Part shown: positions 25,657 to 49,800 of the stretch, one piece after another
Position numbering within the stretch: the stretch's first letter is position 1
Layout: each line of letters starts with the position of its first letter
From: Eledone cirrhosa
Lineage: Eukaryota
Length of the DNA stretch: 64,000 bases
Direction: 5' to 3'
Assembly (NCBI GenBank): GCA_964016885.1
Contig: OZ024742.1
Location: forward strand, 57,908,001-57,972,000
Notes under the pieces: model-generated
The model's input: the letters and a program-made list of their open reading frames with translations, nothing else
Told to the model about the DNA's origin: nothing
The model's database searches: none
Position numbers and translations under genes: made by a program

Positions 25657-27183
25657 TATATATACATATATATATCTATATACACATATATATATATATA
25701 CATATATATATACACATATATATATACACATATATATATACACACATATATATATACACATATATATATACACATATATATATACACATATATATATACA
25801 CACATATATATATACACATATATATATACACATATATATATACACATATATATATACACATATATATATACATATATACATATATTTTATACACATATAT
25901 ATATACATATATATATACATATATATATATGTGTATAAAATATATGTATATGATATCGTTATGTAAATGATAGTAGAAAATTTCATTCCTTTATATATCT
26001 ATTTGTAGTGAAATATTAACGTTTATAAATTTTGATTACTTAAACCATAGCTAATATTGTATTGCCTTATTAGATATTTTAAATATTTTTAATATTAATT
26101 TATCAAATAGGGTTTTCGAGTCATTTACCGGGGCTGTTTCCTAAGTTTTTACTTAACTGCATGTGAGACCTAAGTATATACTTTTGTTTTTGTTTTTTAA
26201 TTTCCGGTTGATTCTATTTATTTATTTATTTATTTATTTATTAATACTACTGTGCATTCTATTTACTGTCTGGCCCTTACTCACTCATCCACATATATGT
26301 CTGTTTACCAACCTTGTAATTATAAGTAATTATATATTATATTATGTTAATTATTTTATATTGTATTTGTTATTGTACTATCGATCCTTATTACTTACCG
26401 TTGATTATATGTACCATTATGGTATGTTAAACTTTATATATCATGTAAGATGTTTATATTTTTGTACCATCATAATTTTGGGTATTGTACAATTTATATT
26501 TTTTCTCACCTACTCTGTAACTCTATATGAATTGATTTGTTAACTTGCATGCCATTATATATTATATTATATATTATATATGTTATTATATTATTATTAT
26601 AGTATTATTGTGACATCTATATTGTTTGTGTAAATTAACCGAAGATTATCTATTATATTATATTATATAGTATATAATTGTATAGTTTGTTATATATTAT
26701 ATGTGCTACTTATAATCATATCATATTATTACCTCATGTATATACGTATTATTATTATTATTATTATTATTTTTATTCCTATCATGCTTATTTATATTTA
26801 AACTCTTAATAAGGTTAAATTTGTGCTGTTGAAGATGGATATGTGTATTGATGTATGTGTATATGTGCGTACGTGTGCGTACATATATACATATGTATAT
26901 TGTACCTTTTAATTTTTATTGTAATTTTAATATTGTTACAAGTATATTATATTATATTATATAGTATTATATATAATTCCCGCTCTATATAACCACCTTT
27001 GTTTAGCTCTAGATTTTTTTGCTTTGGACTATATTTGTAATATGGTTCTAAATGTTATACACCTCTTTAGTGATTTTTATTATATATTTTTACCCATAAT
27101 CTTGCAATACTTTAGTGTATCTACACTCCATATTCTTCGGAGTTTTCGGCTTATATTGGCTGATAATACTTCTTGTTGTTTTA

Positions 27184-27228
27184 ATTGCCCTGATGAGTCC
27201 TTAATAGGACGAAACATTGTTGGCTAAT
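27184..27228 (+). ncRNA. Minimal type I hammerhead ribozyme motif (Penelope-type)
   Basis: ATTGCC-CTGATGA-GTCCT(TAAT)AGGAC-GAAA-CATTGT-T-GGCTAAT: exact core, 5-bp stem II, near-palindromic minimal stem III, GUU cleavage triplet, AATAAA directly after. Confidence 0.8.
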
Positions 27229-27417
27229 AAAGACTTTTGATGTATTGAAGGCTTCTTTGTTTTACTTTCATAATTCTTCGGCTCTGTTTAATTACATTGA
27301 GCTATACCTTTTACTGTCATTTCTATAATATGAAGAGGGTGTTTAACTCCAACACGCTCCAGTATTTTAATCCTTATATATATACATATATATATACATA
27401 TATATATACATATATAC

Positions 27418-28418: not shown

Positions 28419-28702
28419 ATATATATGTGTATATATATATGTATATATATGTCTGTATGTATATATATATGTGTGTGTATATATATATGTATATATATGT
28501 ATGTATATATATATATGTATATATATGTATGTATATATATATGTGTATATATATATGTATATATATATATATGTATGCATATATATATGTATGTATATAT
28601 ATATGTGTATATATATACGTATATATATATATATATGTATGCATATATATATGTATGTATATATATATGTGTATATATATATGTATATATATATATGTAT
28701 GC

Positions 28703-28737
<35 letters not shown>

Positions 28738-29236
28738 TATATGTATGCATATATATATATATATATATGTATGCATATATATATATGTACGTATATATAT
28801 ATGTACGTATATATATATATGTACGTATATATATATGTGTATATATATATATATATATACGTATATATATATATATATACGTATATATATATACGTATAT
28901 ATATATGTACGTATATATATATGTACGTATATATATATGTACGTATATATATATATGTACGTATATATATATGTACGTATATATATATATACGTATATAT
29001 ATATATATACGTATATATATATATATACGTATATATATATATATACGTATATATATACGTATATATATATATATATACGTATATATATATACGTATATAT
29101 ATATGTACGTATATATATATGTACGTATATATATATGTACGTATATATATATGTACGTATATATATATGTACGTATATATATATATACGTATATATATAT
29201 ATATACGTATATATATATATATACGTATATATATAC

Positions 29237-29268
<32 letters not shown>

Positions 29269-29364
29269 GTATATATATATATATGCATATATATATGCAT
29301 ATATATATATATGTATGTATATATATATATATGTATGTATATATATATATATATATGTATGTAT

Positions 29365-29405
<41 letters not shown>

Positions 29406-29429
29406 TATGTATGTATATATATATATATG

Positions 29430-29461
<32 letters not shown>

Positions 29462-29684
29462 TATGTATGTATATATATATATGTATGCATATATATATAT
29501 GTATGTATATATATATATATATGTATGTATATATATGAGTATATACATATGTATATATATATGTATATATATATATGTATATATATATGTATATATATAT
29601 ATGTATATATATACATATGTATATATATACATATGTATATTTACGATATTAAATAAATGGAAACTATATTTATAAAACCATATT

Positions 29685-29750
29685 TATTTCATTATATATA
29701 TTTCAGGGATATCATATTAAATATATGTTATGCCTTCTTCAGACAAAATA
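29685..29750 (-). ncRNA. Type I hammerhead ribozyme motif, family 2, copy A
   Basis: Minus strand: TATTTTGT-CTGAAGA-AGG..CCT-GAAA-TATATAT-A-ATGAAATA. Confidence 0.65.
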
Positions 29751-29960
29751 CAATATAAACAGTCTTATAAATAGATAGATTCGACATATGTATATATATA
29801 TATATATGTATGCATATATATATGTATGTATATATATATATATGTATGCATATATATATATATATATGTATGCATATATATATATATATATATATATGTA
29901 TGCATATATATATATGTACGTATATATATATGTACGTATATATATATATGTACGTATATA

Positions 29961-30003
<43 letters not shown>

Positions 30004-30060
30004 GTATATATATATATATGCATATATATATATATGTATGTATATATATATATATGTATG

Positions 30061-30096
<36 letters not shown>

Positions 30097-30177
30097 TATG
30101 TATGTATATATATATATATGTATGTATATATATATGTATGTATATATATATGTATGTATATATATATATGTATGTAT

Positions 30178-30218
<41 letters not shown>

Positions 30219-30423
30219 TATGTATGTATATATATATATGTATGCATATATATATATGTATGTATATATATATATATGTATGTATATATATGAGTATATA
30301 CATATGTATATATATATGTATATATATATATGTATATATATATGTATATATATATATGTATATATATACAGATGTATATTTACGATATTAAATAAATGGA
30401 AACTATATTTATAAAACCATATT

Positions 30424-30489
30424 TATTTCATTATATATATTTCAGGGATATCATATTAAATATATGTTATGCCTTCTTCAGACAAAATA
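30424..30489 (-). ncRNA. Type I hammerhead ribozyme motif, family 2, copy B (left palindrome arm)
   Basis: Same as copy A: stem I 8 bp with 2 GU pairs, extended stem II, palindromic ATATATAT stem III, AUA triplet. Confidence 0.65.
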
Positions 30490-30627
30490 CAATATAAACA
30501 GTCTTATAAATAGATAGATTCGACATACCTTTCAACTTCGACTTCTATTTGAAAAGTCAACTTTTCAAATAGAAGTCGAAGTTGAAAGGTATGTCGAATC
30601 TATCTATTTATAAGACTGTTTATATTG

Positions 30628-30693
30628 TATTTTGTCTGAAGAAGGCATAACATATTTTTAATATGATATCCCAGAAATATATATAATGAAATA
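30628..30693 (+). ncRNA. Type I hammerhead ribozyme motif, family 2, copy C (right palindrome arm)
   Basis: CTGAAGA at 30636-30642, GAAA at 30674-30677; the closing pair of stem II is an A-A mismatch in this copy. Confidence 0.55.
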
Positions 30694-31160
30694 AATATGG
30701 TTTTATAAATATAGTTTCCATTTATTTAATATCGTAAATATACTCCAAATACTTGTTGAGTGCTTTTATATCAGTTATAAATATTTACTCGTTGTTAACC
30801 CAACAATTTAAATAAAACTTTGCATACATATGTATATATATATGTATATATATATATGTATATATGTATGCATATATATATGTATGTATATATATATGTA
30901 TATATATGTATGCACATATGTATATATATGAGTATATACATATGTATATATATATATGTATATATATATGTATATATATATATTTATATATATGTATATA
31001 TATATGTATATATATATATGTATATATATATATGTATATATATATATGTATATATATATATTTATATATATGTATATATATATGTATATATATATATGTA
31101 TATATATATGTATATATATATAAATATATGTCTATAAGTGTATATATACATTACACGTAC

Positions 31161-31191
<31 letters not shown>

Positions 31192-31313
31192 TATATACAT
31201 ATATATATATATACATACATATGTATATATATATATGTATGTATAAGTGTATATATACATTACACACACACATATATATATATACACACACATATATATA
31301 TATATATACACAC

Positions 31314-31346
<33 letters not shown>

Positions 31347-31381
31347 CATACATATATATATATACACATATATATATATAT

Positions 31382-31412
<31 letters not shown>

Positions 31413-31644
31413 CACATGTATATATATATATACACACATATATATATATATACACATATATATATATATACACATATTTATATACACATATATATATATA
31501 CACACACATATATATATATATATATACACATACACACACATATATATATATATATATACACATGTATATATATATATATATATACACATGTATATATATA
31601 TATATATATATACATACATACATATATATACATACATACACACA

Positions 31645-31702
<58 letters not shown>

Positions 31703-31800
31703 TATATACATACATACACATACATACATACATACACACATATATATATATACATACACACACATATATATATATATATACATACATACACACACACATA

Positions 31801-31847
<47 letters not shown>

Positions 31848-32083
31848 CATACATACACATATATATATATATATACATACATACATACACATATATATAT
31901 ATATATACATACATACATACACATATATATATATATATACATACATACATACACATATATATATATATATACATACATACATACACATATATATATATAT
32001 ATATACATACATACATACACATATATATATATATATATATACATACATACATACACATATATATATATATACATACATACACA

Positions 32084-37691: not shown

Positions 37692-37841
37692 TCAGGACCA
37701 AATACCGGCATAGTTCCCTTGTATATCTGAAGGCATTGGACCTCCAGCAGTAAATAGTCGCACACCTGTATCATCATATTTGTGTGTGAAGATGGAATTG
37801 GAATAACTTGGCCGCATCAAAGGGGAATTATTTTCTTTGTG
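37692..37841 (-). CDS. DCAF12: DCAF12 coding exon 8 (terminal)
   Basis: HKENN...[34 protein letters not shown]-stop; TTTTTCAG acceptor. Confidence 0.92.
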   Translation of the reverse strand, partial: HKENNSPLMRPSYSNSIFTHKYDDTGVRLFTAGGPMPSDIQGNYAGIWS

Positions 37842-43800: not shown

Positions 43801-46800
43801 TATCTCTTAGCCAGACACTTAGCATAGACTTTACTTTGGGGCTTAACAAGGAGATTCCTCTATAATTAGAGTAATATCTCTTGTCTCCCTTTTTGAAGAT
43901 TGTGATTATTACCCCCAATTGCCATTGTTTAGGTGGCTTTCCAGGGATCTAGGCCACCTGGCACACACGAATCAGCCAGAGAATACCTTCGTTATTTAAG
44001 GCTTTTAATATCTCAGGCCGAATTTCATCCTAATTAGTAGCCTTGCCACATTTGAGCTCTTTAATTGCTCTTGTGACCTCAGCCTCTGAGAGATTAGTCA
44101 TCACTCCCAGATGCACCTTGTGTACATCAGAAGATGCTGTTGTGATCAGGTTTAGGAGATCAGCAAAGTATTCTCTCCACCTCTCTGAAAAGAGGAGAAC
44201 CCCAGACACATTCTTGATAGCATGTGTGGAGGACGGCTTCTTATTATGAAGTTGGCGAATGGTCTGCCAGAACACTTTATTTGCTGATCTGAAGTCAGAT
44301 TCCTGCTTAACCCCTAAGTCCTTCCATGTCTTAACGTTTGACACCTTCACTGTCTCTGCTGTGACTTCTTGTACTTGCTTGTACCGCAAGTACAAGGAGG
44401 ACTTATTTCCAAGCCAAGCCAAGCTTTATATGCCCCCTCCTTTGCTTGGATGGCCTTTTTGACCTCTTGATTGAACCAAGGGGTTCTCCTGTCACCTGTT
44501 GCCACACCAAGCCACTTTCACCTGTAGCATTTAACAGCTGAAGCAGAAACTGCCAATTTAAACAGTCTCCACTGCATTTCAACATCCTCAGTTTGCTGAG
44601 GGATTTCTCTGAATTTGGATGCAATAGTATCTGTGTACCTGGTCCTGACCTCCTTATCCACCAATGCTTCCTCCTTTATCCTGCAGGTTGACCTGGACCT
44701 GCCAGTTTTGTGGGCTTCCTTAGCTTTGGGTAGTCTCATGTTGCAAATAACTAGATGGTGATCAGTTGACATCTTAGCGATCAGAGACAATTACAAAATC
44801 TCTGATTCCCCTTTTATTATGTATATTTATGGATGTTTTTGTGCTGGAAGGTGTTAGAGAGCCCATTACTACAACAGAAGTCTTATAAGGTGTCTCCATT
44901 CATATTTAGATTGGGATCACTATTCCATCCAATCACTTCTTTCCATGTCAGGTGGTCAGTGCCAACATATGCATTGAAGTCTCTCATTAGGATATATGAC
45001 TCAGTTTTAACTACTTTGAATGATGCAGTGACTTCATCAAGCAGGAGGCTGAATTAAGTGCAAACATTGCAGGAGGTGGTGCAGTAATGCGCCAACTTCA
45101 GCATTCAATAATCTTCAATTTGGTGTTCATGCCAACCTTGTCAATTGCAGATGGTTGCTTCTGACAGAACTTGCTGGAAGGAGTGTTTGAGGACTTTGCC
45201 CCTACGACTCTCCCAGGAATAAGTGGGCATAGAAGAAAAGATAAATGTTGCCCTTCAATATTGCTATCCTCAAAAATTTTTAAACTATTTCCCAAGATGT
45301 TGACATAATGATATCAGAATTGAGAGGGATATTACACAAGTGGATTTTTAGACATATAGACACAGTTATCTTCATCACTGTTTTTACACTCAATTTTTCA
45401 TTCTTGCAGGAGTTGGAAAAAGTGTCTAAGGTATTTTTCTATGGCTGGATGCTCTTGCTAAAGAAACCATACTTCTGTTTATATAGTTTGGTAAGTGCTG
45501 ATTACCTCCTTTAAACCATAAGCTGTGAAACATTGTTTTAAGCAAGACATAAATAAACATCACTGCTTGCTTTAAACAGTATTGTGTGCACAAATGAGTT
45601 GAAGGAAAAATTGGGTTTAAGAGGAATCAGATAGAAGACTGCACTGCTATGAACACGTAATGTGCATGAATGATTTGTTGGATGAAGTGAGTTTCAAGTG
45701 GAAGGAAGATGCAGTAGAAGAAGTCCAAGGAAAACAGGAAAACATGAACACACAACAAAAGGAGGTACATTGTGTTGGAGAAAACTCATGGAAGCATTGA
45801 AAAACTAATATGATGATGATGATGATGATGAGGGGGGGGGGGGATAATTACAGTTGTGTATATTTTTTAAATTGTAGCAACATTTATAAAATAACTAATT
45901 GAAGAACAAACAGAAGTACAACAACAGGGCAGCATGATGAGCATTCCTGAATTAAAAAGTGTATTAGAGGAATGACTATTATTTATACATTGCATGTTAG
46001 TGTTGCAATAACAATAATATATACACAATACAATAATGGCATTTAATTTAGACACAATCTCAGCATTTTTTAGGGAAGAGCAAAGTTGATTATATCGTTT
46101 TCAATACATTACTGGTATTTATTTTATTGACCCTGAAATAATTAAACAATTTGAAGTCGGGAATTAAATTTGAAATAACCCAAATTTGTTTATTAACCCG
46201 ACAACCACCTGATCACCTATAGATCAGGGGAGCACTCTAGTCAGTTAGATTTTATCCTCATCAGAGGACGTGACAGATGGACGGTCGTAAACACAAAAGC
46301 CTTCCCTAGTGAGGAATGTACATCCCAACATAGCTTAGTTGTCAGCGACCTCACGGTCAGAACTAGACGAGCCCTGAAACAGAGGCCAACCTGGAGAAGA
46401 AAGATCTGGAAGCTGAAAGTCCCCTCAACCAGTAACAGATTTAAAGATATTTTACTCAACGCCTACGACAGTAAAGAAGAACAGATAGAGACATTTAACG
46501 TAGAAGAGAACTGGGAGTTCCTAAAAAATAACTTACTAGAGGCGACGGATGAGGTTTGTGGCTGGAGTAAGACCTCAAGCAGGAGGAGAGTGACTTGGTG
46601 GTGGAACAATAAGGTAGATGAAGCAGTCAAGGCCAAGAGACAGGCATGGAAAGAATGGAAGAACGGGGGGAGCAGGGTACATTACATAGAGACCAAGAGG
46701 GAAGCTAGGCGACAAGTATACTTAGCTAGGAGGGAAGCAGAGGATAGAAAATTCAAGCATGTTTTACAACGTGAGGACCAGAAACAGGAGGTATTCAAGA

Positions 46801-49800
46801 TTGCGAGGCAGTGTGTCAGAGATAGTTGTGATGTCATTGGAGAGAAGTGTATCCGGAATGATAAAGGTGAGCTTGCCCTCACAAGTGCTGAGAAGAAAGA
46901 TGCATGGAAGAGTCATTATGATAGATTACTAAATGAGGAGAATGCATGGGAAGAAGAGACCCTACCCCACGTAGACCCTATAGAGGGACCAGCAGTACAA
47001 GTCAGCGGCAGCGTAGTAAGTAAGGCAATCAGAGATATGAAGATAGGGAAGGCAACCGGTCCATCGGGTATAGCTGCCGAGATGCTGAAGGCATCTGGGT
47101 CTGTAGGTCACACTATAACCACACGTATCGTTAACCAGGTAATACTAGAGGGGGCCATACCAAAAGATTGGTGCAGTAGCATCATTGTCAACTGCTACAA
47201 AGGTAAAGGCGATGCACTAGATAGAGGAAACTATAGAGGTATAAAGTTGATGGACCAGGTCATGAAAGTAACAGAAAGAGTTATAGCACAGCTGATTAGG
47301 GACCGGGTGAATATAGACGAGATGCAATTTGGGTTTGTTCCAGGGAAAGGCACCACTGATGCGCTCTTCCTTGTGAGGCAATTACAGGAAAAGTACCTAG
47401 CTAAAAGTAAGCCACTCTACTTGGCATTTGTCGACCTTGAGAAAGCCTTTGACAGAGTTCCACGTGCAGTAATCTGGTGGGCTCTTAGAAAACTAGGAGT
47501 AGATGAATGGCTTGTGAAAGCGGTACAAGCCATGTATAGGGGAGCAGTCAGCAAAGTTAGGATTGGCAATGAGTATAGCGAGGAATTTAGCGTACAGGTT
47601 GGGGTCCACCAGGGCTCTGTTCTTAGCCCTCTCCTGTTCATCATAGTCCTGCAGGCAATAACGGAGGAGTTTAAGACCGGATGCCCATGGGAACTCCTGT
47701 ATGCTGATGACCTCGCACTCATAGCTGAATCTATGGTAGAACTAGAGAATAAATTCCAAACCTGGAAGCAGGGACTAGAGAGAAAGGGCCTCAAAGTCAA
47801 CATGACAAAGACTAAGGTCCTTATAAGTAGACGAGAAAACAGAACCCAGATCCCCTCAGGGAAATGGCCTTGCTCAGTATGTAGGAAAGGTGTAGGTAGG
47901 AACTCCATTCTTTGCCCCAAATGCAAACAATGGGTACACAAGAGATGTAGCGGGATCTCAGGAAGCTTAATTAAGAATGTAGGATTCACATGCAGCAGCT
48001 GTGCTGAAACAGCAAGCAAACAGCCACAGGAAACAAGTACCACCAATCTCTGGGAGGGCCCTGTAGAAACAGTAGACAGCTTCTGCTACCTAGGTGACCG
48101 AATTAGCAACGGAGGTGGGTGCTCAGAAAGTACAATAACTAGGGTAAGAACGGGATGGAAGAAGTTTAGGGAACTACTACCACTGCTAGCTGCAAAAGGC
48201 TTCTCCCTCAGAATGAAAGGCAGACTGTATGATGCGTGTATCCGAACAGCGATGTTGCATGGTAGTGAGACCTGGGCGCTGAAGGTGGAAGACCTACGTA
48301 GATTAGAGAGAAACGAAGCCTGCATGCTCCGATGGATGTGTAACAGTAATATACGTGAACGACAAAGCATAAATGAATTGAGAGAGAGACTGAGCATAAG
48401 AGGAATCAAATGCTGCGTGCAGGAGAGGCGGTTACGCTGGTATGGACATGTGATGCGTATGAAGGATGACAGCTGCATAAAAAGGTGCAGAGCACTAGAA
48501 GTTGATGGAAACCGCGGAGTGGGGAGACCCAAGATGACTTGGGATGAGGTGATAAAAGCCGACCTTACCCAACTACACCTCTCAAAGTCAATGACACACG
48601 ACCGTGACTTCTGGCGTCACGCAGTAATACAGGGTACCCGACCTCCCATGGGTACATGCTGAAGCATATAAACAATATGCCCCCCCCCCCCCACCGCAAG
48701 GTGGTCGTGGAGGTGCCACGGCAAAAAAGCACCCAGCCCACACTGTAAAGTGGACGTGTAGGCGCCACGAAAAAGCACCCAGCACTCACTGTAAATGAGG
48801 TTGGTGTTAGGAAGGGCATCCAGCTGTAGAAATCAAGCCAGATCAGTTCCTGTATGAGCAAGGCATGGTCAGCCGACCAGACACTGCCCACAACAGGACA
48901 ACCCGTCTAACCCATGCTAGCGTGGAAGAACGGACGTAAAACGGTGATGATGATGATGATGATGATACCAAACCACCTGAAACTGTCTCTGAATATACAA
49001 TACAAAATTATTTATTTTTAAGTGTTTATATTTAGCTAAAAATCTTCTAACATTATTTTATGTTACAACATAGATTATTAAGTCTAAAATGGTTGAAAGA
49101 AAATAATTTTGTATTTTAAGCCTTTCATTACTATATTTCCAATGAAAGACATTGCTTGTGGATTTCAAATAATCTAGAATTTGGAGTTATTTAATAACAC
49201 CACAAACTGTCTATTATTAAACACTATTTCAAACAATAATGTTGTAACATAAAATAATGTTAGAAGGTTTTTAGCTAAATATAAACACTTAAAAATAAAC
49301 AATTGATTGGTGTCACATTGACTGACTTTATTTGATCCTAGTACCAGTTTCTGGTCATCATTAGTTGTTTAGAAGTGAAACAATATTGTTTTATGCTATT
49401 ATTTTTATTTGAACCTAAAATAATATTAAAAACAGTATTTCAGAAATTTACTCTTTGTTGGTTGATATAGGTCATTAACTCAAATTACTGAATAAAACAG
49501 TGGGGTGTAAATTTATTTCAGAAAAGTTGCCACATGATGAAAAAGATTGTGAAGCTCTTTATTAAATATTTCTAATTGATTATTCTTTCCAACTCACACA
49601 AAACAAAGACTCTACAAAAGAAATTGAGAAAAAAGCTAAACTCAACACCAATGATGGAAATGTGTTTTGGAAACTAGGAGTAAATTAAGATCCATGTAGC
49701 TGATATTGAGAAGAGTAGAGTGTCCTCTCACCACCATTCCAATCATTGCTAAACACAATAAAAAGGTAACATGAACCCTTTCATTGCCATATTTCTACTA

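What the first reader, a model, noticed from the sequence alone, without database searches (positions are those of the whole stretch)
30374..30743. 370-bp foldback carrying two outward-facing hammerhead ribozymes, plus a third copy 739 bp upstream
Seen: a palindrome with 184-bp arms, a 2-nt spacer and only two arm mismatches that I could find. Each arm folds into a type I hammerhead: stem I TATTTTGT/ATGAAATA, core CTGAAGA..GAAA, stem II AGGCATAACATAT/ATATGATATCCCT (11 of 13 positions paired), palindromic ATATATAT stem III and AUA site. A left-arm-only copy lies at 29635-29788. Known: Penelope-like elements carry minimal hammerheads with palindromic stem III that work as dimers, and they often form inverted partial LTRs. 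Inference: this is a tiny ORF-less Penelope-derived or retrozyme-like module, so transcription from either side meets a ribozyme and read-through yields long dsRNA.
Basis: partly seen in the sequence, partly recalled or inferred. Interest (0 to 1): 0.75.

Follow-up and report, generated by a model that had tools for sequence, protein, structure and literature searches.

The report
Head-to-head stump of Hydra-type Penelope retrotransposon
This hairpin is two short end-copies of a very common jumping gene (Penelope-like, Hydra group) joined head to head in a TA repeat, one of hundreds of such joints in the genome; its two ribozyme motifs are conserved but predicted to be locked in the hairpin, and they likely sit inside an intron of the parent element.

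Summary
The palindrome is there as described: 184-bp arms, CA spacer, 2 mismatches, third copy 739 bp upstream. It is not an ORF-less family. It is the end repeat (pLTR) of an autonomous element (pLTR-ORF-pLTR, 3.9 kb) whose 750-aa protein has every listed Hydra-clade motif and a telomerase-like fold.

The pLTR anchor occurs 32,183 times. On a sampled chromosome stretch, 82 of 137 hammerhead copies lie in head-to-head pairs, and about 217 joints lie at this same spot.

The hammerhead is supported by compensatory changes, but any read-through RNA is predicted to lock it in the hairpin (pairing probability 0.97). The third copy is a later local duplication.

Additions: pairs join one short-ended and one long-ended arm (27 of 29), giving a tail near 89 nt against the published 30-40. 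Folds pile up at a likely transcription start. The ribozyme lies wholly inside a predicted 186-nt intron that holds all four upstream AUGs; splicing is untested.

The layout is in print (Cervera 2014; Craig 2021), and this scan noted the same kind of foldback many times elsewhere in this genome. Ordinary in kind, useful as mechanistic material.

The parts
30374..30557 (-). Left arm: inverted, 5'-truncated pLTR copy ending near the family's 'short' 3' end (7-9 nt beyond the usual CG|TA point); one private change at 30461
30557..30826 (+). Right arm: forward 5'-truncated pLTR copy, starting 9 nt inside the likely transcription start and ending at the family's 'long' 3' end (TTTGC|ATA); one private change at 30673
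30558..30559 (.). Fold centre (CA); belongs to the forward copy, with one base (30557) shared by both arms
30628..30693 (+). Type I hammerhead motif of the right arm; predicted cut after 30685; pair 10.1-11.1 broken (A.A)
30424..30489 (-). Type I hammerhead motif of the left arm; A10.1-U11.1 intact
30605..30711 (+). Predicted distal extension of stem I (30605-30616 with 30700-30711); the same helix is predicted in two diverged subfamilies
30589..30774 (+). Predicted 186-nt spliceosomal intron of the parent's 5' UTR (AG|GTATGT ... TTTATATCAG|) holding the whole hammerhead, four AUGs and the short 3' end; splicing not shown
30744..30826 (+). Unpaired tail (83 nt here; about 89 nt between the two family 3' ends), with a small predicted hairpin
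29635..29788 (-). Third copy: part of the left arm, duplicated after insertion together with its microsatellite flank; hammerhead at 29685-29750
28600..30373 (.). Interrupted (TA)n microsatellite on the left; the motif order before the third copy repeats before the left arm
30827..31300 (.). Interrupted (TA)n microsatellite on the right; its first ~130 nt resemble the stretch just left of the left arm

Best explanation
The foldback is one insertion made of two short copies of the end repeat of an ORF-bearing Hydra-clade Penelope-like retrotransposon, joined head to head in a (TA)n tract, likely because the element's enzyme nicked both strands and primed one cDNA from each of two fixed start points on unspliced, uncut RNA, both running out near the RNA's likely 5' end. 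Shown: identity with the pLTR of an ORF-bearing element, two fixed 3' ends, one short plus one long arm per pair, same variant on both arms, joints piling up at ACTRCC, hammerhead covariation. Inferred: twin priming; ACTRCC as transcription start; a 186-nt intron around the ribozyme whose removal would clear all upstream AUGs; a ribozyme that works only as a dimer or with protein help. At this locus the ribozymes are predicted to be silent, and read-through would give 184 bp of dsRNA. The third copy is likely a later slippage duplication at the hairpin. Odds: identity about 0.93, twin priming ending at the RNA start about 0.6, intron about 0.65.
For: Parent: pLTR 1804-2526, ORF, pLTR 5709-6421 in L031; window arms 99% identical to it. 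4 of 30 best RT-region loci hold a stop-free frame of 748-750 aa. Motifs RWR, DKT, YRDD, CxCx5C, IIY..YVG, CxxC; no CX2-5CxxC (against PMC8557442 section 11). Model pLDDT 86.6; the two best PDB matches are telomerase RTs. Architecture: 41 divergent, 1 convergent and 3 tandem neighbour pairs among 137 hits; 0 of 41 mix the two variants. 3' ends: 46 long, 43 short, 3 read-through, 2 other of 94 copies; 27 of 29 pairs are short+long by alignment. 5' ends: 24 of 94 (16 of 80 loci) fall in one 30-nt stretch, 10 of them at ACTACC/CTACC/TACC, including solo copies; L186 starts there and reads on into the ORF. 217 junction matches against 2 in the control; in the 50 listed, read by eye, no arm runs 2 or more nt past ACTRCC. 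Donor GTAYGT in 100 of 125 distinct copies (25 truncated or none); acceptor CAG in 56 of 58 that reach it; 0/4/0 ATGs in exon 1/intron/exon 2. D. virilis Penelope has an intron 46 bp after its start (PMC2377424); here 41-42 nt. Covariation: 6 pairs change on both sides, 91.7% of cells paired, slid controls 38-50%.
Against: No RNA evidence of start site, splicing or cleavage. No intron-less retrocopy was found (0 matches; one subfamily's junction only), so splicing has no direct support. A cruder regular-expression classifier gave 22 long+short, 2 other-long+short, 1 read-through+short, 2 short+short and 2 long+other-long of the 29 pairs; the junction letters show three of the last four were misread, and one (L174) is truly long plus near-long. 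The window's left arm runs 7-9 nt past the usual short end, and both arms start 9-12 nt inside ACTRCC, where a small hairpin of exon 1 could also stall the enzyme. The number of pairs with two-sided change is only weakly above shuffle (46 of 500), the 27 rows are related, and I picked them for having a core motif; in the unselected first 30 anchor hits the core was intact in 23. Pfam names neither domain. No read or contig bridges this locus's own centre.
Confidence: 0.75

Rival explanations
1. Same parent element, but the second arm is made by snap-back: one cDNA folds at its 3' end and copies itself, stopping or being cut at the short end.
For: Both arms always carry the same variant (0 of 41 mixed) and often end within a few bases of each other, some as perfect palindromes. 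Exon 1 has a small hairpin.
Against: 15 of 36 unpaired copies end at the short point with no partner within 8 kb, so it behaves as a start site of its own. Many pairs have arms of very different lengths or kilobases between them. Two start sites that define the tail were shown in vitro for another PLE (PMC11167929).
Confidence: 0.15
2. A dedicated non-autonomous foldback or retrozyme-like element that transposes as the 370-450-bp unit and uses its two ribozymes.
For: Short copies are very common, joints cluster so that many units have similar size, and a few junction strings recur at several loci.
Against: Most joints differ letter by letter; arm lengths form a continuum up to several kb; the sequence continues into an RT-EN ORF; ribozymes are predicted to be locked; no tandem array of monomers here.
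Confidence: 0.05
3. Assembly or chimeric-read artefact (palindrome and/or third copy).
For: Perfect palindromes in long TA tracts are hard to assemble; no independent read spans this centre.
Against: Each arm has its own departure from the family majority; the ends are asymmetric at family-typical points; hundreds of like joints exist; an opposite-strand joint of this family appears in short reads of two other samples (59 and 69 reads, one start each); the duplicated microsatellite flanks have diverged by slippage.
Confidence: 0.04

Closest known systems
Hydra clade of C-terminal EN+ Penelope-like elements, e.g. Hydra-1_Obim (Craig et al. 2021, PMC8557442)
   Same: Single ORF with RW[KR], DKT, CxCx5C linker, CxxC and CxH, no CCHH finger; (TA)n target; hammerhead; inverted 5'-truncated copy plus tail. 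The published Hydra-1_Obim hammerhead also has CUGAAGA and an A-U first pair of stem II.
   Different: 3.9-kb unit with a ~1.6-kb 3' region against 'generally <3 kb'; tail about 89 nt against 30-40 bp; hammerhead with a 12-14-bp stem II and long distal stem I; predicted intron around it. Identity to Hydra-1_Obim was not computed.
Metazoan PLE minimal hammerheads (Cervera and de la Pena 2014, PMC4209133)
   Same: Type I, long helix II, palindromic helix III suited to dimers; that paper already reports dual motifs 100-700 bp apart on opposite strands.
   Different: No extra base after A9 and no G10.1-C11.1 pair (A-U here; A.A in a 1,208-hit subfamily); helix I of 8 bp or more against 4-5.
Penelope of Drosophila virilis (PMC2377424) and Poseidon PAc (PMC11167929)
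   Same: Start site inside the pLTR, retained 5' UTR intron about 45 nt later; two RT start sites bounding the tail; uncut RNA as template.
   Different: In D. virilis the 75-bp intron ends at helix I of the ribozyme; here the predicted intron encloses the whole ribozyme and one of the two inferred RT start points.
Animal non-LTR retrozymes (Li, Clavereau, Pollet bioRxiv 10.64898/2026.07.22.740005)
   Same: Type I hammerhead related to PLE pLTRs, no ORF at this locus.
   Different: No head-to-tail array of monomers; arms are inverted and belong to an autonomous element.

Membership tests
EN+ Penelope-like element | pLTR-ORF-pLTR partial tandem | tested here: met
   L031: 723-bp repeats, 98.5% alike, flank the ORF
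EN+ Penelope-like element | Telomerase-like RT | tested here: met
   YRDD at 360; best fold matches are TERTs, E 2.6e-9 and 4.4e-9; Pfam and PDB sequence searches found nothing
EN+ Penelope-like element | C-terminal GIY-YIG endonuclease | tested here: inconclusive
   IIY...YVG at 628-645 matches the Hydra alignment seen; no profile or fold hit to GIY-YIG obtained; domain not folded alone
EN+ Penelope-like element | Inverted 5'-truncated copy and one-sided tail of 30-40 bp | tested here: met
   Layout met; the tail is about 89 nt, longer than published
Hydra clade | RWK motif and DKG changed to DKT | tested here: met
   RWR at 45, DKT at 126; RWK is RWR here
Hydra clade | CxCx5C linker instead of CX2-5CxxC; CCHH absent; CxxC and CxH near the C-terminus | tested here: met
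   CNCRDRSKC 609, CDLC 707; no cysteine pair inside the IIY..YVG core beyond one C; CCRH in most copies, CCRY in P0001
Hydra clade | GxKF/Y not conserved | tested here: inconclusive
   A GVKF string occurs at 92, after RWR, where Hydra proteins show N-x-x-F; likely not the N-terminal motif
Hydra clade | Insertion into (TA)n | tested here: met
   TA follows the long end in 28 of 30 loci, the other 2 read into the ORF
Hydra clade | Placement in an RT phylogeny | not tested
   No reference PLE set was available as usable sequences
Type I hammerhead ribozyme | Core CUGANGA, GAAA, NUH with three helices | tested here: met
   N7 varies (T 18, A 5, G 2, C 2 of 27) while the other core bases do not, in rows chosen for a core-like motif
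Type I hammerhead ribozyme | Self-cleavage | not testable with these tools
   No RNA run; monomer fold unfavourable
PLE minimal hammerhead consensus | Extra base after A9 and G10.1-C11.1 | tested here: not met
   A-U in 22 of 27 rows, G-U 1, unpaired 4
Non-LTR retrozyme | Two or more consecutive tandem units each with a hammerhead, non-coding family | tested here: not met
   Inverted arms; parent has an ORF; the one same-strand pair is a local duplication

The most novel reading that the evidence does not exclude
In this Hydra family splicing sorts the RNA into two jobs. The spliced RNA loses the ribozyme, all four upstream AUGs and one of the two reverse-transcription start points, so it can be translated but cannot build a normal two-armed insertion. 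Only the intron-retaining RNA carries both start points, which would explain why Penelope-like elements keep their introns. The hundreds of short foldbacks are then twin strong-stop copies that map the transcription start to the base, giving a genome-wide record of the integration mechanism.
Probability: 0.35. Interest if true: 0.6.

Novelty: new member of a known kind. Interest (0 to 1): 0.3.

Why it matters
The locus itself is an ordinary scar about 7 kb past the stop codon of a DCAF12-like gene. The family matters more: it is young, has intact frames and tens of thousands of ends, so how Penelope-like elements build inverted ends and tails, and why they retain introns (both named as open in PMC8557442), can be tested on counts and with simple RNA assays. 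Thousands of such hairpins would also be a standing source of dsRNA if read through.

Tried and rejected
Rfam: no hammerhead family hit on 30590-30760; on 28500-32000 the 150 listed of 320 hits were microRNA models below their gathering scores, nearly all on TA repeats. The repeat finder was swamped by microsatellite. Pfam and PDB sequence searches do not name the ORF.

First idea that 30673A is a family allele: a 1,208-hit subfamily does carry A there, but it is only about 87% like the window, so the right arm's A is a separate change. The idea that the two arms came from two subfamilies was dropped for the same reason.

Expression: no RNA holder listed, which says nothing either way; runs X1, X4, X5, X15 showed no intron-skipping joint, but none is on record as RNA. 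Intron-less retrocopies: none. Copies starting at the hammerhead cut site: none seen by eye in the 100 listed anchor hits.

The hammerhead energies printed used wrong end coordinates and were redone; positions printed are one base too high. Offsets mix two references and differ by 2 nt, so I cite the letters. The foldback is not in a coding intron: DCAF12-like exons end at 37695; a homolog search with one exon found nothing.

Full report
OBSERVATION. The palindrome has 184-bp arms (30374-30557, 30560-30743), spacer CA and two mismatches; 29635-29788 equals the left arm over 154 bp. The hammerhead motifs lie at 30628-30693 (+), 30424-30489 (-) and 29685-29750 (-). Both flanks are interrupted (TA)n. 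Rfam does not recognise the motif.

PARENT ELEMENT. The right arm plus tail gave 870 candidates in the 3.0-Gb genome; the 40 scored were 99-100% identical. In 30 loci read, 28 end in TA repeat after TTTGC or TTTAC and 2 run on into coding sequence. L031 shows pLTR (723 bp) - ORF - long 3' region - pLTR with a period of about 3.9 kb. An RT-region query gave 3,586 candidates; of the 30 best loci, 4 hold a stop-free frame of 748-750 aa. P0001 has 48 homologs at E<=1e-20, 31-42% identical, one named from Argonauta hians, so the host is likely a cephalopod (inference, not tested). An alignment of 41 of the 49 proteins gave a model of pLDDT 86.6 whose two best matches are telomerase RTs. Motifs agree with the Hydra clade as defined in PMC8557442 section 11. 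No PLE ORF lies in the window or 10 kb either side.

SCALE AND LAYOUT. A 22-nt pLTR anchor occurs 32,183 times; two stem II variants occur 2,769 and 1,208 times. On C1 up to about 124 Mb, the 137 listed hits of both variants form 41 divergent pairs within 8 kb, 1 convergent and 3 tandem; no divergent pair mixes variants. I fetched 80 stretches covering 94 of the first 100 hits of the commoner variant. Their 3' ends are 46 long, 43 short, 3 read-through and 2 other, and 27 of 29 pairs join a short to a long end. A cruder classifier gave 22 plain long+short pairs plus 7 others; one search's junction letters resolve most of these. The two ends are about 89 nt apart. PMC8557442 gives 30-40 bp for the tail, and PMC11167929 showed in vitro that the tail lies between two RT start sites.

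FOLD POINT. Of 94 5' ends, 43 lie 120 nt or more upstream of the donor and 24 (16 loci) fall in one 30-nt stretch; 10 begin at ACTACC, CTACC or TACC. A two-motif pattern finds 217 joints at this spot, control 2; the pattern can only see joints within 30 nt, but within that range none of the 50 listed passes ACTRCC by 2 nt or more. Solo copies and one ORF-bearing copy start there too. I infer that this is the RNA's 5' end. The window's joint lies 9-12 nt inside it.

RIBOZYME. On 27 distinct copies chosen for having a core-like motif (9 such rows, mostly single-change copies of the window's subfamilies, and 9 rows without a core match were left out), 91.7% of cells pair, 6 of 21 pairs change on both sides, and slid controls give 38-50%. 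The count of such pairs is reached by 46 of 500 shuffles, and rows are related. In 30 unselected hits the core is intact in 23. Stem III is the palindrome AUAUAUAU, which suits a dimer; the monomer fold is 4-5 kcal/mol above the minimum, and 9 kcal/mol in the intron context. In the whole foldback the right hammerhead pairs with the left arm with mean probability 0.97. PMC4209133 reports no monomer and low dimer activity for such motifs, and dual motifs 100-700 bp apart on opposite strands.

PREDICTED INTRON. A donor GTAYGT is found in 100 of 125 distinct copies (loci overlap subfamilies unevenly; 25 are truncated or lack it) and the acceptor CAG in 56 of 58 that reach it. In L032 the stretch from the start to the ORF's ATG splits into 42 nt with no ATG, 186 nt with four, and 98 nt with none. 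This mirrors the D. virilis intron 46 bp after the start (PMC2377424). No intron-less copy was found and no RNA run was available, so splicing is a prediction. The short end (30734-30736) lies inside the intron and the long end (30823-30826) after it, so a two-armed insertion would need unspliced RNA, uncut at 30685.

THIRD COPY. The left arm's change at 30461 occurs at three places in the genome, two of them this arm and the third copy. The microsatellite motif order before both is the same, and the copy ends at a short shared CATA. It is likely a slippage duplication after insertion; L195 shows a similar local triplication of a fold centre.

CONTEXT. DCAF12-like exons run on the minus strand from 61769 to 37695 (6 hits among 150 frames scanned); the foldback is about 7 kb beyond the stop codon. 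Whether transcription reaches it is unknown.

READS. No record bridges this centre. Two RAD-seq samples show an opposite-strand joint of this family at another point, and short-end junctions to TA are abundant (5,254 reads).

WHAT IS IN PRINT. The layout is described (PMC8557442 Fig. 2 legend; PMC4209133). Searches showed no paper on folds at the start site or on a hammerhead wholly inside a Hydra intron; the library lacks most subscription papers. Seen: PMC4209133 parts 1-2 of 4; PMC11167929 parts 1-2 of 4; PMC8557442 passages, section 11 and supplement look-ups (figures not seen); PMC2377424 passages; the 2026 bioRxiv preprint part 1 of 5 (supplements closed). Hammerhead numbering and the term twin priming are recalled.

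EARLIER SCAN NOTES. My reading was noted before the look-up. Notes from this genome report the same kind of foldback, two fixed ends, folds at the promoter and the Hydra assignment; they are not independent support.

VERDICT. A real, ordinary by-product of a known class; a new Hydra-clade family with a long tail and a predicted ribozyme-holding intron. Interest 0.3.

Noticed in passing
window 27178-27230 (+), within 25940-27370: A second, more canonical type I hammerhead motif (CTGATGA, G-C first pair of stem II, short palindromic stem III) at the end of what looks like the 3' region of another Penelope-like family, followed by TA repeat.
   Followed up: partly
L034:3089-3523 (about 3 kb past the window's right end): A foldback of a 77%-identical subfamily with the same layout and a fold centre about 45 nt upstream of its donor-like site.
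   Followed up: partly
window 37695-61769 (-): Exons of a DCAF12-like gene (Pfam PF23760), complete from profile position 1 to 381 apart from gaps.
   Followed up: partly
window 1-1392 and 8906-12909: Arrays of a ~625-bp tandem repeat, 97% alike, continuing in L033; no hammerhead core found by the pattern.
   Followed up: no
L195 (G000:C1:133985200-133986800): A foldback whose centre is triplicated in tandem with a 223-bp period, suggesting these palindromes are unstable.
   Followed up: partly
L031:1-1800: An inverted pair of 3' ORF fragments of a second Hydra-like family with its own hammerhead-like motif sits directly upstream of the full-length copy; the families nest in each other's TA tracts.
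   Followed up: no
L068-L077, L090-L091: A subfamily of 1,208 hits carries an A.A mismatch at hammerhead pair 10.1-11.1 and still spread, which suggests efficient cleavage is not needed for transposition.
   Followed up: partly
window 46197-48659 (+): An 821-codon open frame of a LINE-type element (endonuclease and RT by eye), with fragments elsewhere in the window.
   Followed up: no
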